NCBI RefSeq assembly: GCF_037042905.1 | Contig: NC_087251.1 | Span: 23,190,001-23,254,000, forward strand | Length of the DNA stretch: 64,000 nucleotides | Reading direction: 5' to 3' | From: Lytechinus pictus | Lineage: Eukaryota | In this document: piece by piece, positions 27,087 to 64,000 of the stretch | Numbering within the stretch: the stretch's first letter is position 1 | Layout of the letters: every line of letters starts with the position of its first letter | Translations under genes and position numbers: made by a program | The notes under the pieces: generated by a model | What the model was told of the DNA's origin: nothing | The model's database searches: none | The model's input: only the letters and a program-made list of their open reading frames with translations

Positions 27087-27105
27087 CAGCCGAAAATTTC
27101 GAGGT
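27061..27105 (+). ncRNA. Minimal type I hammerhead ribozyme in the pseudo-LTR
   Basis: CUGACGA core, stem II GGUUGC/GCAGCC, GAAA, loopless palindromic stem III AAUU, stem I ACAUCG/CGAGGU (one mismatch). Confidence 0.8.
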
Positions 27106-34169: not shown

Positions 34170-34927
34170 TTCATGACTTGAATAATTATGAACTGCAGAA
34201 TTCGTTTGGAACAAATTAATGAAAAAACGGGCGTTGAAAAAGATGTTTGTGAAATTTGAACATGAATGTGGATGTATTTAAATTTATCTCGTAAGTTACA
34301 GGAATAATTTTCAGTTCTAAAAACAGTGGTAAACTTGAGGATAAATGATGGCTGTTTAGAATTAACCGAGCTATACATTTATGTAAATTATAAATATATT
34401 GTCTAATTTTGTTTTGTAGGTATTCCCCCAAATAGCATTGCAATAATTTAAATGGGGAAAATTGTTGAATTATAAATTTTCATCAAGATGTTCCTTGGGA
34501 GAATATAATGTTAGCTTATACAAGACACCATACGGGATATTTTATAACAGAAGTAATCAATATGACGTTTCCAATCAAGACATCCCCGAAGTAAATTCCT
34601 AAGCAAAATCTGATTGGTGAGGTTGAAAATATGTTTACTGACGGTCCATCGAATTGGGTTCGTCCTAACCACTAAAATCAGGGTACTAATGGATAATTCG
34701 TTTTTCATTCCTGATTTTCGTAGAGCAAAACGGAAGTCAACCTCATGGATTGGTCTTTGAAAACACAAAAACGAAATCACAACGAGAAAAACCCCGTTGT
34801 GATTTCATTTTTGGAGATCAAAAACAGAAGAATGAAATCAGAAATACTTTTGGTCCTCTCTGATACCTCATTCTATACCTGTGTTTGTTATATATTAAAA
34901 ACAAAATCAGAACACGCTTTCTACCCC

Positions 34928-40900: not shown

Positions 40901-42365
40901 ATCTTGTCATCCCAATAATTTTTTTTTTGTATTAGATATTATCTGGTTGCCATGGCAATAGCTTCAGATGTTATACATTTTGCATCAAACATATCGATGT
41001 TTAGCACACTAAGATTAGGGGAAATGCAGTCCCTTTTTTAAGCATACAGATTAAGTCAATTCCACTTGTATTTTCCACCTGTCCATTGTCTTGTCAACCA
41101 TGTTATTTTTGTAAATTAGATGTTATTTGGTTGCCATGGCAATGGCTTAAGATGTTATATTTATAAATTTAGTCACAAACATATCTCGATTAGTACCTTT
41201 AAATTTGGGAAAATGGAATGATGATCATATCGTACATGTATTCTACATTTTTATCAATATGTTTACATTTCTAGAGGGAAATAAGCTGTTGCCATGGCAA
41301 CAGGCCCTTTGCAAAATTCAATTTAATTCAAGCTTTACCAAGGCAACATGATTTTTTTTATCTCTATAAAGAATTCCTGCAGAACACTTTCTGTACTTTT
41401 TGTTCAAATGAGAGGGGTCAAATCTTAAGCATACAGATTAAGTCAATTCCACTTGTATTTTCCACCTGTCCATTGTCGTGTCAACCATGTTATTTTTGTA
41501 AATTAGATGTTATTTGGTTGCCATGGCAATGGCCTAAGATGTTATATATATAAATTTAGTCACAAACATATCTCGAGTAGTACCTTTAAATTTGGGAAAA
41601 TGGAATGATGATCATATCGTACATGTATTCTACATTTTTATCAATATGTTTACCTTTCTAGAGGGAAATAAGCTGTTGCCATGGCAACGGGCCCTTTGCA
41701 AAATTGTTTCTTTTGAAATTTAATTCAAGCTTTACCAAGGCAACATGATTTTTTATCTTTATAAAGAACTCCTGCAGAACACTTTTTGTATTTTTTGTTC
41801 AAATGAGAGGGGTCAAAACTTAAGCATACATATTAAGTTAATTCCACTTGTATTTTCTACCTGTCCATTGTCTTGTCAACCATGTTATTTTTGTAAATTA
41901 GATGTTATTTGGTTGCCATGGCAATGGCTTGAGATGTAGTTTACACATTTAGCAACCAAAATATCTCCGATAAGCACTGTAAAGTTAGGGGAAATTAACG
42001 ATAAATCATATTCTACAACGTTTTTTAATCATTTTTTTACTTTGCTGGGGAAAAACAAGCCGTTGCCATGGCAACAGACCAATTGGAACTATCTTGATGA
42101 TCTTGAATATTTCTAAATATCATATGTATTCAATTGGGAGCCTGAAATTATTATTTTGGTCATCTATACCATGTTTATTTACCATTTACATGGGAATGCA
42201 TGTTATTTTGGAGAAATTAATCCGTTGCCATGGCAACGGCCGAAAATGGCATTTATAAATTTACCTCCCATCTTTAAAATAAATCTTACGGCATATACTA
42301 ATACTTGTGAAAGTTTCATGCTTTAGTCATAATTTGCACAATTGTTCGGCTAATCCGCTCTACTA
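34928..42365. mobile_element. Non-autonomous Academ-like DNA transposon
   Basis: tagtagagcggattagc / gctaatccgctctacta termini and ~0.9-kb TIRs; 3-bp TSD ccc (5 C in the uninterrupted mirror arm versus 4+4 here); no long ORF. Confidence 0.8.
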
Positions 42366-42734
42366 CCCCTGGTTCTGTTTGGAAAAACGCAGACAGCGAA
42401 AACGAAATCGGGTAGTTCGCTTTCCACTTCCTGCTCTCTGATTTCGTCTTTCGCACAACCAACAGCCTTATCGAAATACGTTATACACACGGGCACGCAG
42501 TACAGTGCATGCATGATACGACCATGAAGCTATTACGTAATAGCTTTATGTTACGACCACGTGCAACAAAAATTCACGTTAACATGGCTTTTAATTTCCA
42601 GCGTTTTCGGATCTTCACAGACAGTGGCGTAGCTAGGATTTTCCCTCCCCCGGGGGGGGGGGGGCAATGGGGGGGTCCTTGCTTTTTCAGGGGGGGGGGG
42701 CACCGGCCATTTTTGGCGGTGTGTGTGTAATAAA

Positions 42735-44397
42735 GTAATTTTTCAAGGGGCGCCCCAGGGATATCCCGACGGCCTAGCCAGGGTAACCACGTACCCTAAC
42801 TTGTAGAGCTCGACACGGGCAACCAGTTAAACACTGACTTGACCCGGCGCATGCACATTAAGGGGGCTCAAATTAACAAAATTAAAGGGAATAAAGGGCT
42901 ATTTATCGCATTTTTAAAATTAAAATAAAGTAAATTTTCAAGGGGCCCCAGGGATATCCCGACAGCCTAGCCAGGGTAACCACGTATCCTAACTTGGAGA
43001 ACTCGACTCGGGCAACCAGATAAACACTGATTTGACCCGGCGCATGCACATTTAGGGGGCTCAAATTAACAAAATTAAAGGGAATAAAGGGATATTTATC
43101 GCATTTTTAGATGATTAAACTAAAGTATTTTTTCAAGGGGCCCCCAGGGATATCCTGACGGCCTAGCCAGGGTAACCACGTATCCTAACTTATAGAACTT
43201 GACTCGGGCGATCAGATAAAAACTTATTTGACCCGGCGCATGCACATTTAGGGGGCTAAAATTAACAAAATTAAAGGGAATAAAGGGCTATTTATCGCAT
43301 TTTTTAAATTAAAATAAAGTATTTTTTCAAGGGGTCCCCAGGGATATCCCGACTGCCTAGCCAGGGTAACCACGTATCCTAACTTGTAGAACTTGACTCG
43401 GGCGATCAGATAAAAACTGACTTGACCCGGCGCATGCACATTTAGGGGGCTAAAATTAACAAAATTAAAGGGAATAAAGGGCTATTTATCGCATTTTTTA
43501 AATTAAAATAAAGTATTTTTTCAAGGGGCCCCCAGGGATATCCCGACGGCCTAGCCAGGGTAACCACGTATCCTAACTTGTAGAACTTGACTCGGGCGAT
43601 CAGATAAACACTGACTTGACCCGGCGCATGCACATTTAGGGGGCTAAAATTAAAGGGAATAAAGGGAATAAAGGGCTATTTATCGCATTTTTTAAATTAA
43701 AATAAAGTATTTTTTCAAGGGGCCCCCAGGGATATCCCGACGGCCTAGCCAGGGTAACCACGTATCCTAACTTGTAGAACTTGACTCGGGCGATCAGATA
43801 AACACTGACTTGACCCGGCGCATGCACATTTAGGGGGCTAAAATTAAAGGGAATAAAGGGCTATTTATCGCATTTTTTAAATTAAAATAAAGTATTTTTT
43901 CAAGGGGCCCCCAGGGATATCCCGACGGCCTAGCCAGGGTAACCACGTATCCTAACTTGTAGAACTTGACTCGGGCGATCAGATAAAAACTGACTTGACC
44001 CGGCGCATGCACATTTAGGGGGCTAAAATTAACAAAATTAAAGGGAATAAAGGGCTAATTATCGCATTTTTAAAATTAAAATAAAGTAAATTTTGAAGGG
44101 GCCCCCAGGGATATCCCGACGGCCTAGCTAGGGCAACCACGTACCCTAACTTGTAGAACTCGACTCGGGCAACCAGATAAACACTGATTTGATCCGGCGC
44201 ATGCACATTTAGGGGGCTCAAATTAACAAAATTAAAGGGAATAAAGGGCTATTTATCGCATTTTTAAAATTAAAATAAAGTAAATTTTGAAGGGGCCCCC
44301 AGGGATATTCCAACGGCCTAGCCAGGGTAACCATGTATCCTAACTTGTAGAACTCGACTCGGGCAACCAGATACACATTAGCTTGACCCGTTGCATG
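42735..44397. repeat. ~194-bp tandem array (about 8-9 units), left arm
   Basis: Repeated ...gggatatcccgacggcctagccagggtaaccacg...; spurious ORFs recur at 194-bp spacing. Confidence 0.92.
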
Positions 44398-46188
44398 CAG
44401 TGGCGTAACAGGGGTCGGTGGCTGGGGGGGGGGGCAAGAACCAAGAATTTCCCGGTCACATCATAAAGCAGGCAATGGAGTCATAAGGCAAAAATTTTGA
44501 GGGGGCGATATTATGGAGTATCGGACAAAAATATATATTTATGCGAGCGAGCGGAGCGTTCGAGCAAAATTTTTGACATTTTAATGGCAAAAATGAGTGG
44601 GGTCCGGGGTAGAGCCCCGGAACCTCTTGATATTAAAGCCATTTTAAACCTTACAGATGGCCACTAATTTTAATCAAATTGCGTGTATATTTATATAGCT
44701 TTCACACTACACATAAATTCAGTGCTGCAGTTGACAGTTGTGTACCGTAATCATCTAAATATTTTGAGGGGGTCTACCATAGCAAATGTGGGAAAATTTG
44801 TAAAAAGTCGGCAGCGAGCGAAACGAGCCAGAAGAAAAATGGCCTTTTGAAATAAAATTGAATTGTGTGATAGACTTTTACCTCACAGCAAATATCATGT
44901 CTTATATTTTTTTTATTTCATTCATCTCATTTCGCTGCCTCCTTCATATTCTTTTATTTCCCCTTGGCTGTGGAACCAATCCCCCCCCCCGTACGCCAGT
45001 GCTTCAACGCAATAGACTTTCATACGAAATTATGCTATATACCATCCATCTTTTTTTCCCGCTCGTTATCTTCAATCCTCAGCAGCCCGGTAGTAATATC
45101 TTGTCCCTTTTTTTTATTTTCCAATTTAGATTTTGCCTCATTCCATTCTACCTTCACTCGCTTTTGTTTGCCTTTATCATCTTTAATTTATTTCCCTGTC
45201 TTTTAAAATTATTTTGAAATTAAATTCTAATTATGTGATAGTCGCTTTGGAAATTTAGTCGATCAATCAATCAATCAATCAATGTAGTTGTGTACCGTTA
45301 TCATCCAAATATTTTGAGGGGGCACACCATAGCAAATGTGGGAAAATTTGTTTTAAAAAAAAGTCGCCAGCGAGCGAAGCGAGCCAGAAGAAAAATGGCA
45401 TTTTGAAATAAAATTATAATTATGTGATAGATTTTTACATCATAGCAAATGTCATGTCTTATATATTTTTTTAAATATTTTATTCATCTCATTACGCTGC
45501 CTCCTTCATTTTCTTTTATTTCCCCTTGGCTGTGGAACCCCCCCCCCCCGTACGCCAGTGCTTCAACGGAAGGATCCATATAGGGGGCCGTTATAGAACC
45601 CTTTAAAGGTTACAGGTTAAGAGCCTCCACTGCACGGGGTCTTGACTCTTGGACAGAGCCCCCGGTAGCTTTGGATATTTAGCAAGTTTATAATAGACTT
45701 TCATACGAAATTATGCTATATACCATCCATCTTTTTTCCCTCTCGTTATCTTCAATCCTCAGCAGCCCATCTTGTCCCTTTTTTTTATTTTCCAATTTAG
45801 ATTTTGCCTCATTCCATTCTACCTTAATTTCCCGCTTTTGTTTGCCTTTTTGTCATCTTTAATTCATTTCCCTGTCTTACTAATCATGCTAATGTATGTG
45901 TATATCTGGGAAAATTGTTCTTCCTCACATGTTCTTCTTTCCTTCCTTTTTCCAAATTCTTTCCGTTTTCCCTTTTTTTTCCTTAGTTTTATTTTCCCTT
46001 ACCCTTTTCTATTCCCCTCCCTTTTCCCCCTTTCATCTTTTTTCCTTTCCTTTTCCTTTCCCTTTCTTTCTTTCTCCCCTTATTTTTTCCTTTTCCCGGT
46101 TTTTTTTTCTTAACATTTTCAGGTGAACTCCGCCAGGGGGAAGGGGGGCAGCTTGCCCCCCCCCCCCCCCCCGCCTGTTACGCAACTG
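44398..46188. mobile_element. Non-autonomous hAT-like element with 8-bp TSD
   Basis: gttgcatg|cagtggcgtaacagg ... cctgttacgcaactg|gttgcatg, inserted in a 194-bp unit. Confidence 0.82.
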
Positions 46189-47928
46189 GTTGCATGCTCA
46201 TTATGGGGGCTAAAATTAACAAAAGTAAAGGAATACGGGCTTTTTCAAGCATGGGGAACCACGGTCCTGACTTTTCCCCCCATCCCTTAGTGCTGCCGAT
46301 GGGTAGAGTAAAAAACAACAAGGAAAGAGAGAAGACAAAATAGAAGAGAGAGAAGCGAAAGGGAGAGATAGGAAAGAAAAGGAGGGGGAAAGGGAGAGAA
46401 AGAGAAGGGAGAACGGAGGGGTCATATCATTGTATGAACAGGATATTTTATGATTATGCCCCGAGCATTAGTGCGAAGCTCAATGCGAGATAAGAACAAA
46501 ATAGAGGGGGCACACCATGGCGCACGCAGCAAAAATTTGCTTAATAATAAGTCTCCAGCGAGCGAAGCGAGCGAGAAGAAAAATCACCTTCAATTTTGAG
46601 ATTGATTTTGACATGGTATGCAGAAAATGACATATCTTTCCTCTTCCTTTTCTTTCTTTCCTTTTATCATTTTTTTTTCTCGGTTGTAGAACTTTTTTTT
46701 TTGGGGGGGGGCAGTGCTATGCGGTTCGGGTCCGGTGCAATGACGGTACTAGGGTTTTTAACCTAGGAGGAGGCAAACAAACATTTTGGGGCCGGGGGGA
46801 TGGCACACATTTTAAAAAAAAATCGAGCGAGAAGCGCGAGCTAATTTTATTGCAAATGCAGTCCCTACTGATTTAAAAAGGGAACTGTTAAGAATCAGCT
46901 GTTTGCATTAATTGGGTCATGAAGATGATATCTCACCAAATGAATAATGCGAGCGCGAAGCGTGAGCTGAAAATTTTTGATATCCGGGATGATACCTGGC
47001 CGTTCTAAGCTTTTTTTTAATTATAAAATGAATGGCTATCTAATTCGCTGAAAATAAATCCTCTATGGAAATTATGAATACGCAGGATATGTATCTCGCT
47101 AAAACAAATAATGAAAACTCTAATAACATTTGATTTTTAAGCCCCATGTGAACAGATAATCATTAATAACTGCGAGCGCGTATCGCGAGCTACATTTTGA
47201 ATTTTATATAATGGCCTGAAAGATTTATGTTAGTGACCAAAATTGTTGGGACCTAAATGCTAACGGTGAATGGATGAGAATATTTGTAAAATTTAAAGAA
47301 CAAAAAACATTTTTGTAGTATTATGACAACGTTTACTATACATTTTGTTTCTTCAAATTTCGGGGGGGGGGGCAACTCACTGAAGACTCCCCATTCGGTG
47401 GCGCCACTGGTCTGGGGCGGAGCCCCCAGAACCTCGTGATATTTTTAAACATTGCAGATGGCCATTTTTTTTTTAAAATCAAATCGCGGGTACATACATC
47501 ACATATTATATTAAGTTGCTAATTAATTGAATTGAAGGCTACACGTGCAAAAGAAAATGTCTCATGAGAATTATTCGAAGATTTGAGGAGCTTTATACTC
47601 ATATTTTATATTTTGACAATACGTTTTCTATCGATATACGCCCCCATCTTTTCTCCAAGAGATGACGATCTACAACAGAAGGCTGAAGATATTCATTCGA
47701 CCCAACCCATTCTCATTTTTTTAATTTGTAAGTTGATTACAAAAAAGAATATGTATAATGATTAGACTGATTCTAGAAACAGAGAATGGGCAACCATTGA
47801 ACATATTTTGTGCAAATAAAAGAAAAATACAGGTGTCACTCAGCTTTCGGAACTATTTTATTGGCGGAGGATTTAGGACTGAGTATAATATATGAATAAG
47901 ATCTGCTCATGAGATGCTTTAACCAGTT

Positions 47929-49025
47929 GCCCCCTAAATGTGCATGCGCCGGGTCAAGCTAGTGTTTATCTGGTTGCCCGAGTCGAGTTCTCCAAGTTAG
48001 GGTACGTGGTTACCCTGGCTAGGCCGTCGGGATATCCCTGGGGGCCCCTTGAAAAAATACTTTTAATTTAAAAAATGCGATAAATATCCCTTTATTCCCT
48101 TTACTTTTGTTAATTTGAGCCCCCTAAATGTGCATGCACCGGGTCAAGCTAGTGTTTACCTGGTTGCCCGAGTCGAGTTCTACAAGTTAGGATACGTGGT
48201 TACCCTGGCTAGGCCGTCGGGATATCCCTGGGGGGCCCCTTGAAAAATACTTTATTTTAATTTTAAAAATGCGATAAATAGCCCTTTATTCCCTTTAATT
48301 TTGTTAATTTAAGCCCCATAAATGTGCATGCGCCGGGCCAAGCTAGTGTTTATCTGGTTGCCCGAGTCGAGTTCTACAAGTTAGGATACGTGGTTACCCT
48401 GGCTAGGCCGTCGGGATATCCTTCGGGGCCCCTTGAAAAAATACTTTATTTTAATTTTAAAAATGCGATAAATAGCCCTTTATTCCCTTTAATTTTGTTA
48501 ATTTGAGCCCCCTAAATGTGCATGCGCCGGATCAAATCAGTGTTTATCTGGTTGCCCGAGTCGAGTTCTACAAGTTAGGGTACGTGGTTGCCCTGGCTAG
48601 GCCGTCGGGATATCCCTGGGGGCCCCTTGAAAATTTACTTTATTTTAATTTTAAAAATGCGATAAATAGCCCTTTATTCCCTTTAATTTTGTTAATTTTA
48701 GCCCCCTAAATCATGCATGCGCCGGGTCAAGTCAGTTTTTATCTGATCGCCCGAGTCAAGTTCTACAAGTTAGGATACGTGGTTACCCTGGCTAGGCCGT
48801 CGGGATATCCCTGGGGGCCCCTTGAAAAAATACTTTATTTTAATTTAAAAAATGCGATAAATAGCCCTTTATTCCCTTTACTTTTGTTAATTTGAGCCCC
48901 CTTAATGTGCATGCGCCGGGTCAAGTCAGTGTTTATCTGGTTGCCCGTGTCGAGCTCTACAAGTTAGGGTACGTGGTTACCCTGGCTAGGCCGTCGGGAA
49001 ATCCCTGGGGCGCCTCTTGAAAAAT
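47929..49025. repeat. ~194-bp tandem array (about 5-6 units), inverted, right arm
   Basis: Reverse complement of the 42735-44397 units. Confidence 0.92.
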
Positions 49026-49893
49026 TACTTTATTACACACACACCGCCAAAAATGGCCGGTGCCCCCCCCCCCCCCTCTGAAAAAGCAAGGACCCCCCAT
49101 TGCCCCCCCGGGGGGGGGGGAATCCTAGCTACGCCACTGTCTGTGAAGGTCCGAAAACGCTGGAAATTAAAAGCCATGTTAACGTGAATTTTTGTTGCAC
49201 GCGGTCGTAACATAAAGCTATTACGTAATAGCTTCATGGTCGTATCATGCACGCACTGTACTGCGTGCCCGTGTGTATAACGTATTTCGATATGGCTGTT
49301 GGTTGTGCGAAAGACGAAATCAGAGAGCAGGAAGTGGAAAGCGAACTACCCGATTTCGTTTTCGCTGTCTGCGTTTTTCCAAACAGAATCAGGGGGTAGA
49401 AAGCGTGTTCTGATTTTGTTTTTAATATATAACAAACACAGGTATAGAATGAGGTATCAGAGAGGACCAAAAGTATTTCTGATTTCATTCTTCTGTTTTT
49501 GATCTCCAAAAATGAAATCACAACGGGGGTTTTCTCGTTGTGATCTCGTTTTTGTGTTTTCAAAGACCAATCAATGAGGTTGACTTCCGTTTTTGCTCTA
49601 CGAAAATCAGGAATGAAAAACGAATTATCCATTAGTACCCTGATTCACTAACCCGTCTCTGTGGTCGAATGGTTAATACCTCAGTCACATTTCCTGTACA
49701 CGGCCGCCTTACGGCGAGTCGAAAACTTCCGTTTTATCTAACTTTATTCAAACCACCCATATATATGAAGCTGGTACAAAAAAAATAAACGGCTGTTTTC
49801 GACTCGCCATACGATCCCCTGCGGGTTCGGGGATTAGAGAATAGGCCCGCTGTATTCTCTGCATGTCGTAAGAGGCGACTAAAAGAGACAGTA

Positions 49894-50378
49894 GGTGGTT
49901 TCAGACCGCCTCGAAGTTCGCCAGTTCCAGGTATTCTCTGATCGGGAAATTTACCCCGATCAGAAAATACCAGGTATTTTGGCGGTCTGAAAGCAAACTA
50001 CGCGTAATATCCCCGAAAGAAAATACCCGATAAATAGTAGGTACTTGGCGAAATTACGAGAACTTTCGCGGGGATTTTTCCAAGGTCGTGGGTATTTTGG
50101 CGGTCTGAAAGCAAATTACGGGAACTTTTAGCCCAGCGTGTCGTTGGGTGCGGCGCCGTGGGTGGCTGCTGGGCTAGTGATTTTAAATTTCGCGCCTTGC
50201 TTGCTTATCAGACCATACTGCGCATGCTCGTAACTTCAGGAACTACTTCAGGAACTTATCCCGAAGGGTATGTTTCAGGGCGGTGTGAATGCAGGAATAA
50301 TTAATGGGTATTTTTCAGCCTAAAAAAGTTCTCGTAATTTAACGGGGATTCTTGTGATCGAGGCGGTTTGAAACCACC
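49894..50378. mobile_element. TA-flanked MITE inserted in the LINE 5' UTR
   Basis: ta|ggtggtttcagaccgcctcga ... tcgaggcggtttgaaaccacc|ta (21-bp TIR, 1 mismatch). Confidence 0.82.
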
Positions 50379-50871
50379 TACTCTGTTTGCCGTGGACTGC
50401 CACCCGTGTTGGGGGATAAAGGGATCCTGATGATTGAGTGGATGGTGTGACTGCGGTCCTCTTGAAACAACACGTCATTTTGGCCCTGGATTCTCCTAGT
50501 CGGGAGGTTTTATAGGCCTGGTAAAAATCAATCGGCTGGTGGTGTTCAGCCCTAAGATGCTATTTTAACTGGTTTATTTCTTGTTGTCTCTCGATGTGTA
50601 TTTTTGGGTTCTGTGTTGTTTGATCTCAAGCGATGTGATAGTTTGAACTTTGATTCTTTTGACACTACTTTCAATTTACTTTGGTATAGTATTTTAGAAG
50701 GCAACTGCTTAAACAGGTCAATCAGGGTGGATTTTGGTTTGCTCTGAGTATAGCACTGCTGTATCTCTGGCGTCAGTATAAGTGATTATCCTTATATATA
50801 TATATGACGTCCCCTTGTTGGACTCCGATGGTGGGTGGGGAGCAATGGTGCTGAATTAAAAAAAGAATAGT

Positions 50872-52162
50872 ATGGCTAATTTCAACAAACAATCCAATAA
50901 GCGGAGTAGAAGTAATTCCAATGATGGTACTGAGCCAGTTAACTTCCCACATTTTCTGGTCATTCAGGGTAGTGATCCAAATAAACCACTCAAACTATCG
51001 CCATTTGCTATAAATAAAGGTGTCGAGTCATTAGCTGGACCTGTGAAATCAATCAAAAGGTTAAGATCAGGTGATATTCTGGTGGAAGTCGAGAGAGCTG
51101 GTCAGGCGAGTAATTTGCTCAAGACCGACAAATTTGTCAATATTCCTATTAAAGTCTCACCTCATAAGACCTTAAACTCGTGTAAAGGGGTAGTTCGCTG
51201 CCCTGAACTTAGAGACTGCGACGATGATGAAATTCTTGAGGAACTTGCTGATCAGCAAGTAATCGATGTCCATAGAGTAACAGTCAATCAGAATGGAATT
51301 AAGAAACCAACTAATACCTTGTTTCTAACCTTTAACAGATCTACCATTCCTCCATATATCAAGGTTGGCTATTTGCGAGTTAAGGTGGATATTTACATCC
51401 CAAACCCCATTCGATGCTTCAAGTGCCAAAAATTTGGCCATTTCAGGAGCTATTGTCAACTGAATGAGTGTTGTGAGAATTGTGGCAAGGATGATCATAC
51501 TGGCTCTCCCTGCCAAGTTCCATCAAAGTGTATTAACTGTGGTGGCAGTCATCCTGCTAATTCTCGGTCGTGTCCAAAATGGATCGAGGAGAAAAGAATC
51601 CAAGAATTGAAAGCTTTGGGTAACCTATCCTGTATCCTATCCTGAAGCACGGAAGCTGTATCAAACACAACATACTCAAAGTTGTTCATACGCAGATAAG
51701 ACCAAACAAAGTACTGGAGGAACTAATCAACAATCTAAATTAACTCAACAGCCTAAGGCTACAGCTACTACCCAAACTGACATAACTTGGTTAAATGGTG
51801 ATTTCCCTGTGACTCTTGAAAATAATAAAGCAACAAATACAGAGAAACCTAAATCTCAAACTAAAAAACAAGATCAACAGAAGAAGGGGCAGACTAAGAC
51901 TAAGGATGGTCGTCGAAGTCGAAGTCTCTCACGGGATCCTCCCACTAGAAATACTTCAAGTAATCAAGAAACTAAAAAACCATCAACTAAAGTGAAAAGT
52001 AAACCTCAGATAAATGTATCAAAACCAAAGTTAACTGACTCAGTAGTAACTAAAAATAAATATGATGTATTATCAATTGAGAGAGATGATGATATGGATA
52101 TTTCTCCAATTCATCAACCCTCCTCTAAAATTAAATTGGTTCAAAAATTAGATAATACGTAA
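50872..52162 (+). pseudogene. LINE ORF1 nucleic-acid-binding protein, frameshifted near 51630
   Basis: CFKCQKFGH...C, CENCGKDDH...C, CINCGGSH...C; small duplication tatcctg/tatcct breaks the frame; basic tail continues to TAA 52160-52162, directly abutting the ORF2 ATG. Confidence 0.85.
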
Positions 52163-54719
52163 ATGTATTATCATGGGAAGGAAAAAGCCGTTGTTCAATG
52201 GAACTGTCGAGGAGTAAAACCTAATTATGAGGAAATCAAATGTCTTTTACTTAATCATAATCCATATGTTATGTGTTTACAAGAAACATTTTTGAGAGAT
52301 TCAGATAATATTTCATTTAGGGGTTATGATATGTTTAATAAAACTAGTACTTCTTTGATAGATGGTAGACCTATTAGAGGTTCATCAATATTGATTAAGA
52401 AAGGAGTTCCACATGAAGCTCTTGAACTTCATACTAATCTACAAGCTGTTGCAGCTAAGATAACCCTCCACTGCACTTTTACAATATGTTCCATATATAT
52501 TCCACCTAGACATGAGCTTTCAGAAGCTGAATTAGTTAGACTAGTTAACCAGCTTCCTGTACCTTTTTTGTTAGTAGGGGATTTTAATGCTCACAGTTCC
52601 CTTTGGGGCTGTCAGAACTCAAATAGATTAGGTAATATTGTTGAGCTAATGCTTGAACATTTTGATTTATGTCTTTTAAATGATGATTCTCCTACATATC
52701 TTCATCCAGCTTCTGGTTCCATGACGGCTATCGATATATCTATTTGTTCACCTAATATTTTTATGGATTTCCAATGGAAAGTCCATAGTGAACAATGTGG
52801 TAGCGATCACTTCCCTATTCTTATTGAAATTGTAAGACCTTTACCAGAGGAAAAAGTTCCTAAATGGCAACTTCACAAAGCAAATTGGGATGCTTTCTCA
52901 AATCAGTGTTTATTAAATATTAATAATGGTAATTTTCAGGATACAGAGGATCCTCTTGCTTTGTTTTCTCATACATTACTTGATATAGCTACCAATACGA
53001 TACCAAAATCTGGTTCTTCTCATCGTAAACATAATCCTTGGTTTAATGCTGAATGTAAAGAAGCTGTTAAATGTCGTAAAAAGGCCTTAAGGAAATTTAA
53101 AAAATACCCAAATAATAACAATTTGCGAAAATATCGAGAAACAAGAGCAAAGACACGCAATATTATCAAGAAAAATAAACGTCAATCTTGGAAAAATTAT
53201 GTTTCTAAACTGAATATTCATACTCCCATTAATAAAGTGTGGGAAATGGTGAGGAAAATATGTGGAAAACATCTGAGTAATTCTGTATCTTATTTGACTA
53301 AATCGGATGGTGATAAATGTACAGAAAGGACAGATATTGTTAATTTACTGGCAGAGGAATTCGAACATAACTCATCATCTAATCATTACTCTCCTACATT
53401 TCAGATTTATAAAAATCAAGCAGAAAGTCAGGAACTCAATTTTTTATCAAATAATGTAAAGGATTATAATATCCCATTTACTATCTCTGAGTTGAAAAAC
53501 TCACTCGGTAAATGTCATGATACTGCAACTGGTCCAGATGAAATTCATTATCAATTTTTAAAACATCTACCAGAAGCATCTCTTTTAGTTCTTTTAGATA
53601 TATTTAACAAAATTTGGAGAACAGGTGACTTCCCAGATTCGTGGCGGGAAGCTATCATTATTCCTATTCCGAAACCTGGTAAGGACACATCTAAGCCTAC
53701 GAATTATCGTCCCATCTCTTTGACTAGTTGTCTTTGTAAAACCATGGAAAGAATGATTAATGCCCGATTAGTTTGGTTCTTGGAGAAGCGTGGTTTGATT
53801 TCAAAGTTTCAAAGTGGTTTTCGTCATAATCGAAGCACTGTTGATCAACTTATTCGACTTGAATCTTTCATTCGTGATGGCATTATTCGAGGTCACCATG
53901 TGGTATCTGTCTTTTTTGATCTTGAAAAGGCCTATGATACTACTTGGAAGTATGGAATTATGAGAGACCTTTTCAATCTTGGGTTGAGGGGCAGGTTGCC
54001 CATTTTCATTCAGAATTTTCTTTCGAATCGTGTGTTTCGAGTCCGCCTAGGGTCAACTTTTTCAGAATTACACAATCAGGAAATGGGTGTTCCTCAAGGT
54101 AGCATACTTTCTGTTACTTTGTTCTTATTGAAGATCAATAGCATTGTTGACGTTGTAAATCCTAGGTTTGATAAGTCCTTGTTTGTGGACGACTTCTGTA
54201 TTTCTTGTTCGTCACGAAATATGTCGACCATTGAAACAGTATTACAAAATTGTCTAAATAGAATTGAAAGGTGGGCAGATGAGAATGGTTTCCGCTTTTC
54301 AAAAACCAAGACAGTTTGTGTACATTTTTGTACTAAACGATCAGTGCATCCAGATCCTAAAATTAGAATAAATGGCTCTATCATTCCTATAGTTCAACAA
54401 ACTAAATACCTAGGCTTAATCTTTGATAATAAACTCAATTTTAAAGCTCATATTGATTATGTAAGACAAAAGTGTCATAAAGCTTTAAATCTTTTGAAGG
54501 TTGTGTCCAAAATGGATTGGGGTGCTGATCGCATTGTCCTCCTCCGTTTATATAGATCTTTAGTTAGATCTAAGCTTGATTATGGCAGTGCAGTTTATAG
54601 TTCCGCCCGAAAGTCATATCTTGAAAAATTGAAACCCATACAGAATCAAGGACTTCGACTTTGTCTAGGAGCATTTCGTACATCTCCTATGGAGAGTCTT
54701 TATGTGGAGGCTAATGAAC
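52163..54719 (+). CDS. LINE ORF2: AP endonuclease + reverse transcriptase (C-terminally broken)
   Basis: QWNCRG, LQET, GDFNAH, SDHFPI; GPDEI, YRPISL, FFDLEKAYD, GVPQGS, FVDD, KYLG. Confidence 0.93.
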
Positions 54720-54724
54720 TAAAA

Positions 54725-56357
54725 GAAAAGAGGAGTAGGTTTTTTAACGTGCAAATGGTGTGACTCTCCCTTACACGGGACCGACGGCTTAGAGTCTCCT
54801 CCGAAAGACTAGACAATTGGAATAAAATACCTTGCCCAAGGGTATACCTGTTGTGATTGGGAATCGAACAGTTTCCCACCTAAAATCTAATAAACAGATT
54901 GATCTCCTTTAGGAAATTTACAATACATAATCGTGAAATATCTCTAAATAATATCTTAAGGTCAGGAACATCATAAAAGTTAGTACGAATATGTGCAAAA
55001 TCAGCACATTCAATGAGGATGTGTTTTACTGTAAGTGTACAATTACATGATATGCATTGAGGTGGATTTTCTCCTGCAAATAAATATGCATGTGTTAAGT
55101 GAGAATGTCCAATACGAGCACGGGTCAATACAATGTCTTCCCGTCGTTTAGCTAATGGAAGAGTATTTTGTGATTCAAGTCTTGGTTGGTGTTGATGGAG
55201 TTTATTATTAGGATTTAGATCCCATGATGTTTGCCATTTATTTCTAATATAAGTATTAACCTTTGATTTTAGATCAGTGTAAGGTATCTGTATTTCTGTT
55301 ATATCCAGATCTAAAGCTTCTTTAGCTAACTTATCAGCTTTTTCATTACCTTGAATACCTGTCTGGCTTGGTATCCAAACAAATATTATTCGTTTATCTA
55401 GTGTATTAAGTTTATACAGAATTTCCAATAACTGAACAATATAAGGATGTTTATGATTTCTATTTTGTAATGCCGTTAAAGAAGACAAAGAATCTGTATA
55501 AATAACAAAAAGTCTACCGACACAGTTTTCTACAACACCTAAAGCCATTTTCAAAGCTAATAACTCATCAGTATATATGGAAGAACTATCTGGCAATCTA
55601 ACTTGTCTTTGTATAGGACCACTGATACAAGCCGCACCTACTTTATTCTGGTGTTTTGATCCATCTGTATAGATTGCACGATAATTACTATATTTATGTC
55701 TCATTTCTCCAAATTTATTTAGGAAAACTAAATCACTTGTAAAACCCTTTTTATATGTTCTTAGTGTAAAATCAATTACTGGTTCAGCAATCATCCATGG
55801 TGGCATATTAGATATCAAGGAAGGAGCTACGTTAGTAGCATCCAGTATATGTGTTAAAGCTTCTTTCGTACGTAAACCAAAAGTTTTGATGGCTGATGGT
55901 TTACTAGTATAAAAATTAATATATCGTGGCGTGAATGTACAATCATATGTCGGATTATGAGAGTTATTTTTTAACTTTATCGCATAGTGTAAAGAGAGTT
56001 TTTCGTATCTTAGATGTAAGGGGGGTTCATTAGCCTCCACATAAAGACTCTCCATAGGAGATGTACGAAATGCTCCTAGACAAAGTCGAAGTCCTTGATT
56101 CTGTATGGGTTTCAATTTTTCAAGATATGACTTTCGGGCGGAACTATAAACTGCACTGCCATAATCAAGCTTAGGTCTAACTAAAGATCTATATAAACGG
56201 AGAAGGACAATGCGATCAGCACCCCAATCCATTTTGGACACAACCTTCAAAAGATTTAAAGCTTTATGACACTTTAGTCTTACATAATCAATATGAGCTT
56301 TAAAATTGAATTTATTATCAAATATTAAGCCTAGGTATTTAGTTTGTTGAACTACAG
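54725..56357 (-). mobile_element. 5'-truncated LINE copy B (end of RT, RNase H, CCHC, partial 3' UTR), inverted
   Basis: ORF 54880-56397: KYLG..., IYTDGSK, YTDS, WIPS, GNEKAD, CISC...H...C; several substitutions relative to copy C. Confidence 0.9.
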
Positions 56358-57870
56358 GATTGATTGATTGATAAAAATTTAACGACACTATCAACACATG
56401 CGTGTCATATAAGTGTCGGACAGTTAATCTGGAAAGGTTACTATAATACAGTACAAATTACCCTAATGCAACTTTACAAAGGAACAGGATTATAAATAAG
56501 TGATTATCAGCAATAAATTAATATGTTAACTACTTCCCCGGGATAACTTCCCTACTCTTTACGAAAAGAGGAGTAGGTTTTTTAACGTGCAAATGGTGTG
56601 ACTCTCCCTTACACGGGACCGACGGCTTAGAGTCTCCTCCGAAAGACTAGACAATTGGAATAAAATACCTTGCCCAAGGGTATACCTGTTGTGATTGGGA
56701 ATCGAACAGTTTCCCACCTAAAATCTAATAAACAGATTGATCTCCTTTAGGAAATTTACAATACATAATCGTGAAATATATCTAAATAATATCTTAAGGT
56801 CAGGAACATCATAAAAGTTAGTACGAATATGTGCAAAATCAACACATTCAATGAGGATGTGTTTTACTGTAAGTGTACAATTACATGATATGCATTGAGG
56901 TGGATTTTCTCCTGCAAATAAATATGCATGTGTTAAGTGAGAATGTCCAATACGAGCACGGGTCAATACAATGTCTTCCCGTCGTTTAGCTAATGGAAGA
57001 GTATTTTGTGATTCAAGTCTTGGTTGGTGTTGATGGAGTTTATTATTAGGATTTAGATCCCATGATGTTTGCCATTTATTTCTAATATAAGTATTAACCT
57101 TTGATTTTAGATCAGTGTAAGGTATCTGTATTTCTGTTATATCCAGATCTAAAGCTTCTTTAGCTAACTTATCAGCTTTTTCATTACCTTGAATACCTGT
57201 ATGGCTTGGTATCCAAACAAATATTATTTGTTTACCTAGTGTATTGAGTTTATACAGAATTTCCAATAACTGAACAATATAAGGATGTTTATGATTTCTA
57301 TTTTGTAATGCCGTTAAAGAAGACAAAGAATCTGTATAAATAACAAAAAGTCTACCGACACAGTTTTCTACAACACCTAAAGCCATTTTCAAAGCTAATA
57401 ACTCAGCAGTATATATGGAAGAACTATCTGGCAATCTAACTTGTCTTTGTATAGGACCACTGATACAAGCCGCACCTACTTTATTCTGGTGTTTTGATCC
57501 ATCTGTATAGATTGCACGATAATTACTATATTTATGTCTTATTTCTCCAAATTTATTTAGGAAAACTAAATCACTTGTAAAACCCTTTTTATATGTTCTT
57601 AGTGTAAAATCAATTACTGGTTCAGCAATCATCCATGGTGGAATATTAGATATCAAGGAAGGAGCTACGTTAGTAGCATCCAGTATATGTGTTAAAGCTT
57701 CTTTAGTACGTAAACCAAAAGTTTTGATGGCTGATGGTTTACTAGTATAAAAATTAATATATCGTGGCGTGAATGTACAATCATATGTCGGATTATGAGA
57801 GTTATTTTTTAACTTTATCGCATAGTGTAAAGAGAGTTTTTCGTATCTTAGATGTAAGGGGGGTTCATTA
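56358..57870 (-). mobile_element. LINE 3' part (copy C: RNase H, 3' UTR, (AATC)n tail), inverted duplicate
   Basis: Mirror of 62335-63847. Confidence 0.9.
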
Positions 57871-58069
57871 TGAGGCGCCGAATGTACCAATATTATATAG
57901 AACAATTATTTGTTATATAATCATTATTTATTAAATAATAACTATTATTTATATATAATTTACATTTTATTTGTAAATAACTACTATTATATAAAATATC
58001 ATTTCTAATTATTTATATATAATTCCAAGTAATACTTCATTATTTGTAAATAATAATAGTTCGACATTC

Positions 58070-58835
58070 CATTATTTATAAATAATGATTATTTGTTTTT
58101 CATTATTTATAAATAATGATTATTTGTTTTTCATTATTTATAAATAATGATTATTTGTTTTTCATTATTTACAAATAATGATTATTTGTTTTTCATTATT
58201 TATAAATAATGATTATTTGTTTTTCATTATTTATAAATAATGATTATTTGTTTTTCATTATTTACAAATAATGATTATTTGTTTTTCATTATTTATAAAT
58301 AATGATTATTTGTTTTTCATTATTTATAAATAATGATTATTTGTTTTTCATTATTTATAAATAATGATTATTTGTTTTTCATTATTTACAAATAATGATT
58401 ATTTGTTTTTCATTATTTATAAATAATGATGATTTGTTTTTCATTATTTATAAATAATTTGTTGAGTTTTCCATTATTTATAAATAATGATTATTTGTTA
58501 AATAATGAAAACGTCTACTTCATTATTTATAAATAATTTTTTCGAGTGCACCATTATTCTCATTATTTATAAATAATCATTATTTAATGTTCGAGTTTTC
58601 CATTATTTATAAATAAAGATTATTTGTTAAATAATGAAATATCTACTTCATTATTTATAAATAATAATTTTGTTTCAATATCCCATTAATCATTATTTAT
58701 AAACAATTTTTACAGTTTGCCATTATATACAAATAACCATTATTTATTAAATAATGCCATTATTTATTAAATAATGCCATTATTTATTAAATAATGCCAT
58801 TATTTATTAAATAATGCCATTATTTATTAAATAAT
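58070..58835. repeat. 31-bp AT-rich minisatellite (about 12 units) followed by 20-bp repeats
   Basis: (ttatttataaataatgattatttgtttttca)n and (ataatgccattatttattaa)x4. Confidence 0.92.
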
Positions 58836-59544
58836 GGAAAACTCGCTATAACATGCAAATGTGGGACCGCCCATGATATGAATATTCATGATGCGATTTC
58901 CTTTTTCGTGATTTTTCTTCACAAATTTTTGTCCATTTCCTCTTCATAATGACATTTCTTGAAGCAATTTTCTAGGGATATGGTCTGATTGTAATATTCT
59001 TCATTTTCTATATAACTTCGTCTTCGTAGAAATATAAAAAAGTGTAATTTTATACGATTTTTCCTACAGTTCACAATCCCCATAGGCGCGCGTGTACGGT
59101 AGGGACAACCGGTGAATCGACGGAGTGCTCTTCATCGAAATACTACGTTGGTTGGTCCCCGGAAGTGGCGGGCGGAATTTAGCCCGAATCCTCGATGGAA
59201 GTCGATCAAGTGCATATGAGCTGAGAGAGTGAAATATCAGTGTACTTGTACAGGCCCTTCTACTTTTTATAAATATTTCTTGTTGCTTTTTTTGTTAAGT
59301 TAATTTTTCCTGGTGTAGAGATAAGTTTCAGTTCTAATAATGCACTTCAAATACATTTTGGAGTGTCTGTTTGAGGCGTTTGGGGCGATTTCACCCTGGC
59401 CCCAAAATGCTCGCAACGACAATACGGGGGCATGATGACCCCTAAATTTTTAAAAACTTATTTTTCTATTGAAAATTATCACAAAATTCACCAAAAGTGT
59501 GCACGAAAGCCTTCGTATTTCACTTTTAAAACTCCATAAAGTGC

Positions 59545-60211
59545 CCAAATGACAAGCTTGGTCGCTTCGCTGTGTCGCATTCAACTTGAGAACGTTTACG
59601 CGTCTGCTTCGATATATCCCCCCCCCCCTCCTCCGAAAGAAATTCTGTATACGGCCATGCTCTAAAGAGCCTGGCACATTGATTTATGTATACTTTCATT
59701 TTCATTATTTTTATCTCATTATCAACATGGCCTTACGCAGAATTTTTTCCAGGGGGGCCGGGGCCGGAGCATGACGCGCGTAAACTTTCTCAAAAAAATC
59801 TTGAAAGCGAGACAGCCACGGGACCAAGCCCAAATGACAAGCTTGGTCGCTTCGCTGTCTCGCATTCAACTTGAGAACGTTTACGCGTCTGCTTCGATAT
59901 ATCCCCCCCCCCCCCCCCCTCCTCCGAAAGAAATTCTGTATACGGCCATGCTCTAAAGAGCCTGGCACATTGATTTATGTATACTTTCATTTTCATTATT
60001 TTTATCTCATTATCAACATGGCCTTACGCAGAATTTTTTCCAGGGGGGCCGGGGCCGGAGCATGACGCGCGTAAACTTTCTCAAAAAAATCTTGAAAGCG
60101 AGACAGCCACGGGACCAAGCCCAAATGACAAGCTTGGTCGCTTCGCTGTCTCGCTTTCAACTTGAGAACGTTTACGCGCGTCTGCCCCCACCCCCCGAAA
60201 GAAATTCTGTG
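59545..60211. repeat. ~291-bp tandem units in the left arm
   Basis: gcccaaatgacaagcttggtcgcttcgc recurs at ~59545, ~59830 and ~60120. Confidence 0.85.
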
Positions 60212-61388
60212 TAAGCTAGGCCATGATGATAATGTGATAAAAATAATGAAAATGAAAAGTACATATAAATCAATGTGCCATATGCTCTTTTGAGCATGGC
60301 CGTTCACAGAATTTCTTTCGGGGGGTGGGGGCAGACGCGCGTAAACGTTCTCAAGTTGAAATCGAGACAGCGAAGCGACCAAGCTTGTCATTTGGGCTTG
60401 GTCCCGTGGCTGTCTCGCTTTCAAGATTTTTTTGAGAAAGTTTACGCGCGTCATGCTCCGGCCCCGGCCCCCCTGGAAAAAATTCTGCGTAAGGCCATGT
60501 TGATAATGAGATAAAAATAATGAAAATGAAAGTATACATAAATCAATGTGCCAGGCTCTTTAGAGCATGGCCGTATACAGAATTTCTTTCGGAGGAGGGG
60601 GGGGGGGATATATCGAAGCAGACGCGTAAACGTTCTCAAGTTGAATGCGACACAGCGAAGCGACCAAGCTTGTCATTTGGGCACTTTATGGAGTTTTAAA
60701 AGTGAAATACGAAGGCTTTCGTGCACACTTTTGGTGAATTTTGTGATAATTTTCAATAGAAAAATAAGTTTTTAAAAATTTAGGGGTCATCATGCCCCCG
60801 TATTGTCGTTGCGAGCATTTTGGGGCCAGGGTGAAATCGCCCCAAACGCCTCAAACAGACACTCCAAAATGTATTTGAAGTGCATTATTAGAACTGAAAC
60901 TTATCTCTACACCAGGAAAAATTAACTTAACAAAAAAAGCAACAAGAAATATTTATAAAAAGTAGAAGGGCCTGTACAAGTACACTGATATTTCACTCTC
61001 TCAGCTCATATGCACTTGATCGACTTCCATCGAGGATTCGGGCTAAATTCCGCCCGCCACTTCCGGGGACCAACCAACGTAGTATTTCGATGAAGAGCAC
61101 TCCGTCGATTCACCGGTTGTCCCTACCGTACACGCGCGCCTATGGGGATTGTGAACTGTAGGAAAAATCGTATAAAATTACACTTTTTTATATTTCTACG
61201 AAGACGAAGTTATATAGAAAATGAAGAATATTACAATCAGACCATATCCCTAGAAAATTGCTTCAAGAAATGTCATTATGAAGAGGAAATGGACAAAAAT
61301 TTGTGAAGAAAAATCACGAAAAAGGAAATCGCATCATGAATATTCATATCATGGGCGGTCCCACATTTGCATGTTATAGCGAGTTTTC

Positions 61389-62135
61389 CATTATTTAATA
61401 AATAATGGCATTATTTAATAAATAATGGCATTATTTAATAAATAATGGCATTATTTAATAAATAATGGTTATTTGTATATAATGGCAAACTGTAAAAATT
61501 GTTTATAAATAATGATTAATGGGATATTGAAACAAAATTATTATTTATAAATAATGAAGTAGATATTTCATTATTTAACAAATAATCTTTATTTATAAAT
61601 AATGGAAAACTCGAACATTAAATAATGATTATTTATAAATAATGAGAATAATGGTGCACTCGAAAAAATTATTTATAAATAATGAAGTAGACGTTTTCAT
61701 TATTTAACAAATAATCATTATTTATAAATAATGGAAAACTCAACAAATTATTTATAAATAATGAAAAACAAATCATCATTATTTATAAATAATGAAAAAC
61801 AAATAATCATTATTTGTAAATAATGAAAAACAAATAATCATTATTTATAAATAATGAAAAACAAATAATCATTATTTATAAATAATGAAAAACAAATAAT
61901 CATTATTTATAAATAATGAAAAACAAATAATCATTATTTGTAAATAATGAAAAACAAATAATCATTATTTATAAATAATGAAAAACAAATAATCATTATT
62001 TATAAATAATGAAAAACAAATAATCATTATTTGTAAATAATGAAAAACAAATAATCATTATTTATAAATAATGAAAAACAAATAATCATTATTTATAAAT
62101 AATGAAAAACAAATAATCATTATTTATAAATAATG
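61389..62135. repeat. Mirror copy of the 20-bp and 31-bp arrays
   Basis: Reverse complement of 58070-58835 with one fewer 20-bp unit. Confidence 0.92.
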
Positions 62136-62334
62136 GAATGTCGAACTATTATTATTTACAAATAATGAAGTATTACTTGGAATTATATATAAATAATTAG
62201 AAATGATATTTTATATAATAGTAGTTATTTACAAATAAAATGTAAATTATATATAAATAATAGTTATTATTTAATAAATAATGATTATATAACAAATAAT
62301 TGTTCTATATAATATTGGTACATTCGGCGCCTCA

Positions 62335-63847
62335 TAATGAACCCCCCTTACATCTAAGATACGAAAAACTCTCTTTACACTATGCGATAAAGTTAAAAAA
62401 TAACTCTCATAATCCGACATATGATTGTACATTCACGCCACGATATATTAATTTTTATACTAGTAAACCATCAGCCATCAAAACTTTTGGTTTACGTACT
62501 AAAGAAGCTTTAACACATATACTGGATGCTACTAACGTAGCTCCTTCCTTGATATATAATATTCCACCATGGATGATTGCTGAACCAGTAATTGATTTTA
62601 CACTAAGAACATATAAAAAGGGTTTTACAAGTGATTTAGTTTTCCTAAATAAATTTGGAGAAATAAGACATAAATATAGTAATTATCGTGCAATCTATAC
62701 AGATGGATCAAAACACCAGAATAAAGTAGGTGCGGCTTGTATCAGTGGTCCTATACAAAGACAAGTTAGATTGCCAGATAGTTCTTCCATATATACTGCT
62801 GAGTTATTAGCTTTGAAAATGGCTTTAGGTGTTGTAGAAAACTGTGTCGGTAGACTTTTTGTTATTTATACAGATTCTTTGTCTTCTTTAACGGCATTAC
62901 AAAATAGAAATCATAAACATCCTTATATTGTTCAGTTATTGGAAATTCTGTATAAACTCAATACACTAGGTAAACAAATAATATTTGTTTGGATACCAAG
63001 CCATACAGGTATTCAAGGTAATGAAAAAGCTGATAAGTTAGCTAAAGAAGCTTTAGATCTGGATATAACAGAAATACAGATACCTTACACTGATCTAAAA
63101 TCAAAGGTTAATACTTATATTAGAAATAAATGGCAAACATCATGGGATCTAAATCCTAATAATAAACTCCATCAACACCAACCAAGACTTGAATCACAAA
63201 ATACTCTTCCATTAGCTAAACGACGGGAAGACATTGTATTGACCCGTGCTCGTATTGGACATTCTCACTTAACACATGCATATTTATTTGCAGGAGAAAA
63301 TCCACCTCAATGCATATCATGTAATTGTACACTTACAGTAAAACACATCCTCATTGAATGTGTTGATTTTGCACATATTCGTACTAACTTTTATGATGTT
63401 CCTGACCTTAAGATATTATTTAGATATATTTCACGATTATGTATTGTAAATTTCCTAAAGGAGATCAATCTGTTTATTAGATTTTAGGTGGGAAACTGTT
63501 CGATTCCCAATCACAACAGGTATACCCTTGGGCAAGGTATTTTATTCCAATTGTCTAGTCTTTCGGAGGAGACTCTAAGCCGTCGGTCCCGTGTAAGGGA
63601 GAGTCACACCATTTGCACGTTAAAAAACCTACTCCTCTTTTCGTAAAGAGTAGGGAAGTTATCCCGGGGAAGTAGTTAACATATTAATTTATTGCTGATA
63701 ATCACTTATTTATAATCCTGTTCCTTTGTAAAGTTGCATTAGGGTAATTTGTACTGTATTATAGTAACCTTTCCAGATTAACTGTCCGACACTTATATGA
63801 CACGCATGTGTTGATAGTGTCGTTAAATTTTTATCAATCAATCAATC
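62335..63847 (+). mobile_element. LINE 3' part (copy C) completing the element begun at 49814: RNase H + CCHC, 3' UTR, (AATC)n tail
   Basis: Starts NEPPLHLR in continuity with ...YVEANE; stop at 63487; tail atcaatcaatcaatc 63833-63847. Confidence 0.9.
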
Positions 63848-64000
63848 CTGTAGTTCAACAAACTAAATACCTAGGCTTAATATTTGATAATAAATTCAAT
63901 TTTAAAGCTCATATTGATTATGTAAGACTAAAGTGTCATAAAGCTTTAAATCTTTTGAAGGTTGTGTCCAAAATGGATTGGGGTGCTGATCGCATTGTCC
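63848..64000 (+). mobile_element. Start of 5'-truncated LINE copy B, runs off the window
   Basis: Mirror of 56205-56357; VVQQTKYLGLIFDNK. Confidence 0.88.

What the first reader, a model, noticed from the sequence alone, without database searches (positions are those of the whole stretch)
54712..64000. Foldback element apparently caught generating an inverted duplication of its own flank
Seen: LINE part A ends at taatgaac (54712-54719). Part C restarts at the same 8-mer (62335-62342) directly beside the element end ...ggcgcctca, so this looks like an 8-bp TSD. But A is not joined to the element's left end: 3.1 kb of the right flank (C + tail + copy B), inverted, sits between them (54725-57870), joined to A through a 5-nt filler taaaa. 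Inference: a cut exactly at the left element end was repaired by using the right TIR as template, running into the flank and then end-joining to A. That would be a transposon-driven route to making large palindromes.
Basis: partly seen in the sequence, partly recalled or inferred. Interest (0 to 1): 0.8.

Follow-up and report, generated by a model that had tools for sequence, protein, structure and literature searches.

The report
Foldback transposon mirrors its own flank
A 4.5-kb hairpin-shaped jumping element that landed inside a retrotransposon has a nearly perfect upside-down copy of its right-hand neighbouring DNA on its left side, likely made when a break at one end was repaired using the other end as template, a rarely caught variant of a known kind of rearrangement that reads have not yet confirmed.

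Summary
The layout is in the assembly. LINE part A stops exactly at the element's insertion site. An inverted LINE block follows (54725-57868), then a 4,468-bp palindromic element, then the right flank. The arms differ by 2 substitutions in about 3.7 kb. Only 1,666 of the 3,146 inverted bases have their partner inside the window.

One correction: other copies of the element end, in three public runs, share the flanking TA. The ends are therefore probably TA..TA with a 6-bp target duplication (IS3EU/GingerRoot signature), not 8 bp. Two of the five "filler" bases may then be the element's own first bases.

Best reading (0.40): a one-ended cut, repaired by copying through the opposite arm into the flank. 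A polymerase stall at the hairpin base predicts the same breakpoint (0.25), so "transposon-driven" is unproven. No genome or source reads were available, so the 54720 junction and the predicted stop at 65480 are untested.

The scan found no look-alike of this stretch. It has noted IS3EU-type foldbacks in this genome and a fold-back duplication in a fungal transposon (both unchecked). Verdict: a new variant of a known kind.

The parts
50860..54719 (+). LINE part A: ORF1 in two frames (50860-51645, 51611-52162) and ORF2 from 52163 (endonuclease + RT), broken off at 54719; 5' end not mapped
   Evidence: (Exo_endo_phos_2 E 7e-20, RVT_1 E 2e-32)
54714..54719 (+).
   Evidence: 6-bp reading inferred
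54720..54724 (+). Junction bases taaaa; may be the element's first two bases (ta) plus aaa, or ta plus a slipped repeat of the adjacent aaaag
   Evidence: sequence; parsing is inference; no read support obtained
54725..56367 (-). Copy B, inverted: 343 bp of A-end, uninterrupted target site, RNase H region, cut off in mid 3' UTR at 54725
   Evidence: (RNase_H E 1e-11)
56368..56562 (-). Rest of the LINE 3' UTR with (tcaa)n tail, inverted
   Evidence: family contigs cover it and break off near 56357-56392
56563..57868 (-). LINE part C, inverted; ends in the reverse complement of the target duplication (57863-57868)
57869..62336 (.). Non-coding palindromic (foldback) element, 4,468 bp, probable TA..TA ends. 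Holds 31-bp arrays (58036-58499, 61706-62169), 20-bp arrays (58718-58836, 61389-61487) and ~291-bp units (59543-60118, 60397-60682)
60119..60397 (.). Centre of the palindrome: 93-bp arms with 1 mismatch and a 93-nt loop; a variant of the 291-bp unit, itself a small inverted-repeat module
   Evidence: -165.8 kcal/mol; 0 of 100 shuffles fold as well
62337..63837 (+). Right flank: target duplication (62337-62342), LINE part C with RNase H, 3' UTR and tail; presumed template of the mirror
   Evidence: RNase_H E 1e-14
63838..64000 (+). Start of copy B on the right; identical to the inverted copy over these 163 bp; runs off the window

Best explanation
A young non-coding foldback element sits in a LINE with the same LINE junction at both of its ends, likely because a one-ended cut at its left end, presumably by the family's transposase, was repaired by copying through the opposite arm and about 3.1 kb on into the right flank, and the new end was then likely joined to part A through a few untemplated or slipped bases. 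Inferred order of events: (1) the LINE inserts; (2) its 3' 1.85 kb is duplicated in tandem, giving copy B; (3) an IS3EU-type element inserts into the first copy with a 6-bp duplication; (4) break at the left end, possibly leaving the element's first two bases on A; (5) arm-templated synthesis, either primed by the cut element end or by fold-back of the new strand during gap repair after excision; (6) end-joining. Shown: anatomy, breakpoint position, arm identity, family-wide TA at the ends. Inferred: steps 1-6, and above all the transposase as the cutter.
For: A ends exactly at the insertion site. Both element ends abut the same part-C junction, which needs copying or exchange. The mirror has 2 substitutions in ~3.7 kb, against 15 in 1,638 bp between the A/C copy and B, so it is the youngest event. 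A/C and B share 4 bases where all four public runs read otherwise (these 4 sites were picked from the 40 rows shown, 69 hidden), which supports a local older tandem duplication. The inverted block ends in mid 3' UTR. The family looks young and multi-copy: an X1 contig matches 57869-58035 with 0 differences, and 23 contigs break off at 57869 into unrelated flanks. TA..TA ends with a usual 6-bp TSD define IS3EU/GingerRoot (PMC10045372 and PMC6839031, passages). Repair of one arm on the other arm, running past it, was proposed for Galileo in the inward direction (PMC3573991, passages).
Against: No read or contig shows the 54720 junction, a simple A-element junction or a C-element junction among the rows listed; the runs appear not to be the source animal and many rows were hidden. 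The end of the mirror lies outside the window. The breakpoint coincides with the base of the element's hairpin, so no transposase is needed. The ta after the duplication has a ~11% chance of being coincidence. I found nothing on how IS3EU transposases cut (passages). Both substitutions have the derived base on the right arm, the presumed template, so they would have to be later mutations or consensus errors. No second full-length copy of the element was seen, so a foldback shape before the event is assumed.
Confidence: 0.4

Rival explanations
1. Palindrome-driven, no transposase. A fork copying A stalled at the base of the element's 2-kb hairpin, switched without homology to the opposite strand about 3.1 kb downstream, copied back into the right arm, and switched back within the identical arms.
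For: In the inferred precursor the stem ends exactly at the terminal TA, and the centre folds strongly. One junction hidden in identical inverted repeats plus one with microhomology or a templated insertion is the pattern of human DUP-TRP/INV-DUP events (PMC11293582, passages).
Against: It needs a non-homologous jump of ~7.6 kb. Slippage between the target duplicates, which simply deletes the element, would be the commoner outcome of such a stall (own knowledge). There is no clear microhomology at 54720-54725 beyond 1 base.
Confidence: 0.25
2. Two steps through an inversion. An allele A | inverted(B, UTR, C) | element | distal UTR arose first, by a second local insertion plus exchange or by hybrid-end transposition and later excision. 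It was then joined to a standard allele within the palindromic element, by crossover or by a haplotype switch in the assembly.
For: A palindromic element is homologous in both orientations, so such an exchange gives exactly this layout. The arms differ in repeat-unit number and by 2 substitutions, as two alleles might. Alternative transposition makes flanking inversions and inverted duplications (PMC3744419 passages; bioRxiv 2020.01.07.897926 section 15).
Against: It needs three or more events and two element-bearing alleles that are nearly identical over 3.7 kb. No element end or recognisable second target duplication lies at 54720. No listed contig shows the element in this LINE in four other runs (weak, contigs show presence only).
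Confidence: 0.13
3. One long fold-back from the centre. The element was an ordinary one with unlike halves. After a cut at its left end it was resected to the small inverted module at 60119-60397, folded back, and copied the right half plus 3.1 kb of flank. The foldback shape and the flank mirror would then be one event.
For: The element arms (0 in 1,945) are as identical as the flank arms (1 in 1,666). The centre is a variant unit whose two sides are of the same type, unlike units 1 and 2, which is a fold-back signature.
Against: The left arm has an extra 291-bp and an extra 20-bp unit, and the central arms have 1 mismatch in 93 bp. Earlier scan notes (unchecked) report many IS3EU-type palindromic families in this genome, which makes a pre-existing foldback plausible.
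Confidence: 0.12
4. Pure sequencing or assembly artefact, such as fold-back or amplification chimeric reads.
For: The arms are near-identical, no spanning reads were seen, and artificial palindromes in long reads are documented (bioRxiv 173872, search listing and start of abstract only).
Against: A fold-back read gives two identical arms around one centre, but these arms differ in repeat-unit number. It also cannot explain a second junction that meets part A exactly at the insertion site.
Confidence: 0.08

Closest known systems
Galileo arm (TIR) extension in Drosophila mojavensis (PMC3573991; passages read)
   Same: Long, internally repetitive arms with unequal repeat-unit numbers. A proposed repair of one arm on the other, with the copied tract running past the arm and creating new inverted sequence.
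   Different: There the tract runs inward and recruits element sequence, and Galileo is P superfamily. Here it runs outward into 3.1 kb of host flank, with a junction at the insertion site.
IS3EU / GingerRoot DNA transposons (PMC10045372, PMC6839031, PMC12730594; passages read)
   Same: TA..TA ends (here TAT) and a 6-bp target duplication fit.
   Different: No transposase in this copy. Arms are ~2.2 kb, against 100-150 bp in GingerRoot. The passages read describe no flanking rearrangements.
Foldback elements: FB, sea urchin TU, Tetris (PMC4079207; passages read; TU details recalled)
   Same: Long arms with an outer tandem-repeat domain, an inner domain and a small non-coding middle.
   Different: Most are assigned to Mutator with 8-10-bp duplications. 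This one appears to have 6 bp and TA ends.
Ac/Ds sister-chromatid transposition and composite insertions; P hybrid element insertion; Tam3 rearrangements (bioRxiv 2020.01.07.897926 abstract and section 15; PMC3744419 passages)
   Same: A DNA transposon next to an inverted duplication of its flank.
   Different: Those use two ends and strand transfer, leaving a new element-target junction with its own duplication. Here no new element junction exists.
DUP-TRP/INV-DUP at inverted low-copy repeats (PMC11293582; passages read)
   Same: One junction inside ~2-kb identical inverted repeats, and one non-homologous junction with a short insertion.
   Different: No triplication and no duplication of the segment between the repeats. 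The scale is kb, and the repeats are transposon arms.
Maize Ae1-5180 (Mu1 flanked by inverted host repeats) and Antirrhinum niv-525 (both recalled; one search returned only starch papers citing the allele, none read)
   Same: As recalled, a transposon-associated inverted duplication of adjacent host DNA.
   Different: Not checked; different superfamilies.

Membership tests
IS3EU/GingerRoot | TA..TA termini | tested here: met
   Both ends in the window; 23 contigs in 3 of 4 runs break off at 57869. A TA target duplication would look the same.
IS3EU/GingerRoot | 6-bp target site duplication | tested here: inconclusive
   With TA assigned to the element, the A/C overlap is exactly 6 bp. No second copy with both flanks was available.
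IS3EU/GingerRoot | Integrase-like DDE transposase | not testable with these tools
   The only frame of 120 aa or more inside the element lies in its central repeats (not searched against Pfam). No genome is held in which to seek an autonomous partner.
Tc1/mariner | TA target duplication | tested here: inconclusive
   The ends shown are flanked by TA and the target has TA, but this reading leaves 6 extra bases on part A unexplained.
8-bp-TSD superfamilies (hAT, P, Merlin) with the end at 57871 | Variable flank immediately outside the terminus | tested here: not met
   The two bases outside 57871 are shared by the contigs listed; no row at 57870 or 57871 among the 20 of 94 loose-end rows shown.
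Foldback structural class (FB/TU/Tetris) | Long arms with outer tandem-repeat domain, inner domain and small non-coding middle | tested here: met
Foldback structural class (FB/TU/Tetris) | The palindromic form transposes as such (other full copies) | not testable with these tools
   Only the first 167 bp were laid on reads; collection scans found no true copy.
Alternative transposition (sister-chromatid, hybrid element, composite insertion) | New element-target junction with its own target duplication | tested here: not met
   Both ends abut the original junction, and at most 2 element bases lie at 54720. The site at 65480 could not be seen.
DUP-TRP/INV-DUP | One junction within identical inverted repeats and one non-homologous junction with a short insertion | tested here: met
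   definition
DUP-TRP/INV-DUP | Triplicated segment flanked by duplications | tested here: not met
   Only one extra inverted copy of the flank; the element interior is not duplicated.

The most novel reading that the evidence does not exclude
This is a frozen abortive reaction of an IS3EU-type transposase. It cuts one end two bases inside the element, leaving TA on the donor flank, and the free end is extended on the opposite arm into host DNA. That would be a first clue to the cleavage chemistry of this superfamily, and a one-step route by which foldback elements grow into giant palindromes and capture flanking genes in mirror copies.
Probability: 0.2. Interest if true: 0.65.

Novelty: new variant of a known kind. 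Interest (0 to 1): 0.35.

Why it matters
Large palindromes are unstable and can yield hairpin RNA. Here such RNA would be against a young LINE family, as inverted Ac duplications silence Ac (abstract). If arm-templated repair can run outward, foldback elements can enlarge themselves with host DNA, which could explain giant palindromic elements carrying mirror-image passengers. Both breakpoints are legible to the base, so the case can be tested cheaply. As one unverified allele of a known class of rearrangement, its present weight is modest.

Tried and rejected
No whole genome is held, so the contig could not be extended.

Run search: 24 runs listed, best share 0.50, all contigs, so probably no source data. 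Four of them were laid on 55990-58035. Two joints were listed: the intact LINE site (X1, X15) and a 40-base skip (X2). No junction of this locus appeared; 74 loose-end rows and 358 pieces were hidden, so absence is not evidence.

Collection scans for the element end found 0 hits in metagenomes and 0 in viral contigs. With shorter patterns there were 48 and 1 hits; none of the 49 loci matched over more than 22 bases, so they are treated as chance. The element has no second copy in 1-57800. Scan look-ups by sequence or relatives returned nothing.

Rejected: (1) Copy B as a LINE inserted tail-first at 54720, because the junction is mid 3' UTR. (2) Copy B made in the same event as the mirror, because it is 0.9% diverged. 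(3) An RNA-templated (LINE RT) patch as in human L1 foldbacks (PMC11702581 passages): not excluded, but no poly-A or tail lies at the junction.

The central-arm comparison was out of register and is replaced. The probabilities printed ignore hidden rows and are not used.

Literature searches listed no paper on an outward arm-templated flank duplication at an IS3EU or sea urchin foldback element. The library lacks most older subscription papers, and no supplements were opened.
Full report
OBSERVATION. Self-comparison gives one large palindrome, 56205-64000. To its left lies part A of a LINE, whose ORF2 has endonuclease and RT domains and breaks off at 54719. The rest of that LINE (part C, RNase H) resumes right of a palindromic element. 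Between A and the element sits an inverted block. It holds a partial LINE copy B with the target site intact (54725-56367), the remaining 3' UTR (56368-56562) and part C (56563-57868). Measured against the intact site, A and C overlap by exactly 8 bases. The mirror is nearly perfect: 1 substitution in 1,666 bp of flank, 0 in 1,945 bp of outer arm plus one 20-bp unit, and 1 in 93 bp at the centre, with one extra ~291-bp unit on the left. Only 1,666 of the 3,146 inverted bases have their partner in the window, and no genome is held. The host is a sea urchin according to earlier scan notes (not checked here).

THE ELEMENT ENDS WERE MISREAD. Contigs of four public runs were laid on 55990-58035. 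Contigs carrying the element end leave the window at 57869 (12 in X2, 10 in X4, 1 in X1; 2 more in X2 at 57867). No row at 57870 or 57871 is among the 20 shown, and 74 rows were hidden. Were the flank random, most contigs would break at 57871 and only ~11% would add TA (frequencies). So TA belongs either to the element or to a TA target duplication. With TA..TA ends the duplication is 6 bp, the signature of IS3EU/GingerRoot (PMC10045372, PMC12730594, PMC6839031; passages), and the ta at 54720-54721 equals the element's first two bases. With a Tc1/mariner TA duplication, A would carry 6 unexplained extra bases. I favour the IS3EU reading at about 0.75; no second copy with both flanks was seen.

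HISTORY. The A/C copy and B differ at 15 of 1,638 bases, yet share 4 bases where all four runs read otherwise (picked from the rows shown). This points to an older local tandem duplication. The element is absent from B and matches an X1 contig with 0 differences over 167 bp. The mirror is the youngest event. The inverted block ends about 195 bp short of the LINE tail, at a point through which X1 and X15 contigs run, so the 54720 junction is a break and not a retrotransposition end.

MECHANISM. Strand transfer makes new element-target junctions; it cannot put the old junction at both ends. The mirror must therefore come from copying or exchange through the arms (inference). What remains open is why A ends at the insertion site. 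The best reading (0.40) is a one-ended transposase cut, arm-templated synthesis into the flank, and end-joining with 3-5 extra bases. In the precursor the hairpin stem would end at the same place, so a stalled fork with two template switches fits as well (0.25); that junction pattern is known from human DUP-TRP/INV-DUP (PMC11293582, passages). An inversion allele joined to a standard allele within the palindrome, biologically or by a haplotype switch, gives the same layout in more steps (0.13). A single fold-back from the centre that also created the foldback shape is compatible with the equal identity of arms and flanks and with the make-up of the centre (0.12). A pure read artefact is unlikely (0.08), because the arms differ in unit number and the second junction hits the insertion site to the base.

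RESULTS AGAINST THE BEST READING. No listed contig supports any junction of this locus, and the runs appear not to be the source animal (best share 0.50). Both substitutions have the derived base on the presumed template arm. Nothing in the passages read describes how IS3EU enzymes cut. The retained ta has a ~11% chance of being coincidence.

COMPARISON. The event works like the arm-on-arm repair proposed for Galileo, but outward (PMC3573991, passages). It resembles the products of Ac, P and Tam3 alternative transposition (bioRxiv 2020.01.07.897926 abstract and section 15; PMC3744419 passages) but fails their defining test, a new junction with its own duplication. The element has the modular build of FB/TU/Tetris foldbacks (PMC4079207, passages). 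Maize Ae1-5180 and niv-525 are recalled as precedents and were not read (one search listed only starch papers). Searches listed no report of this for IS3EU or sea urchin elements; older subscription papers are mostly missing from the library and no supplements were opened. Earlier scan notes, unchecked, report IS3EU-type palindromic families and an autonomous IS3EU in this genome, and a fold-back duplication in a fungal transposon. No look-alike of this stretch was found.

VERDICT. The anatomy is present in the assembly, the TSD needs correcting, and the mechanism class is known. The initiating cut is unproven and the key junction is unverified. New variant of a known kind, interest 0.35. If the two-base remnant proved to be a regular IS3EU cleavage mark (probability 0.2), interest would be 0.65.

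Noticed in passing
window 34676-49645: A ~15-kb element with near-identical outer arms (34727-34927 and 49393-49593, 99%), ends starting aatcaggg, flanked by a 6-bp direct repeat (cactaa), and carrying inverted 194-bp arrays.
   Followed up: partly
window 34928-42365: A second foldback-like element nested in the left arm of the one above, with TAG..CTA ends. Comparison with the empty site in the other arm suggests a 3-bp duplication, which would fit Academ (ends recalled; 3-4-bp TSD mentioned).
   Followed up: partly
window 63490-63670: The LINE's 3' UTR holds a stretch resembling the Deu/Nin domain of deuterostome SINEs (resemblance recalled, not tested). It is present in family contigs of X1 and X15.
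   Followed up: no
window 49650-50400: The probable 5' region of the LINE is interrupted by two small inverted-repeat insertions, about 49705-49815 and 49890-50385.
   Followed up: no
window 25332-27245: A 584-aa frame that reads like a Penelope-type reverse transcriptase, with part of its start repeated in inverted orientation downstream (read by eye, no family search).
   Followed up: no
window 15451-15906: A frame that reads like an exon of a K-dependent Na/Ca exchanger (SLC24), suggesting the locus lies in or beside such a gene (read by eye).
   Followed up: no
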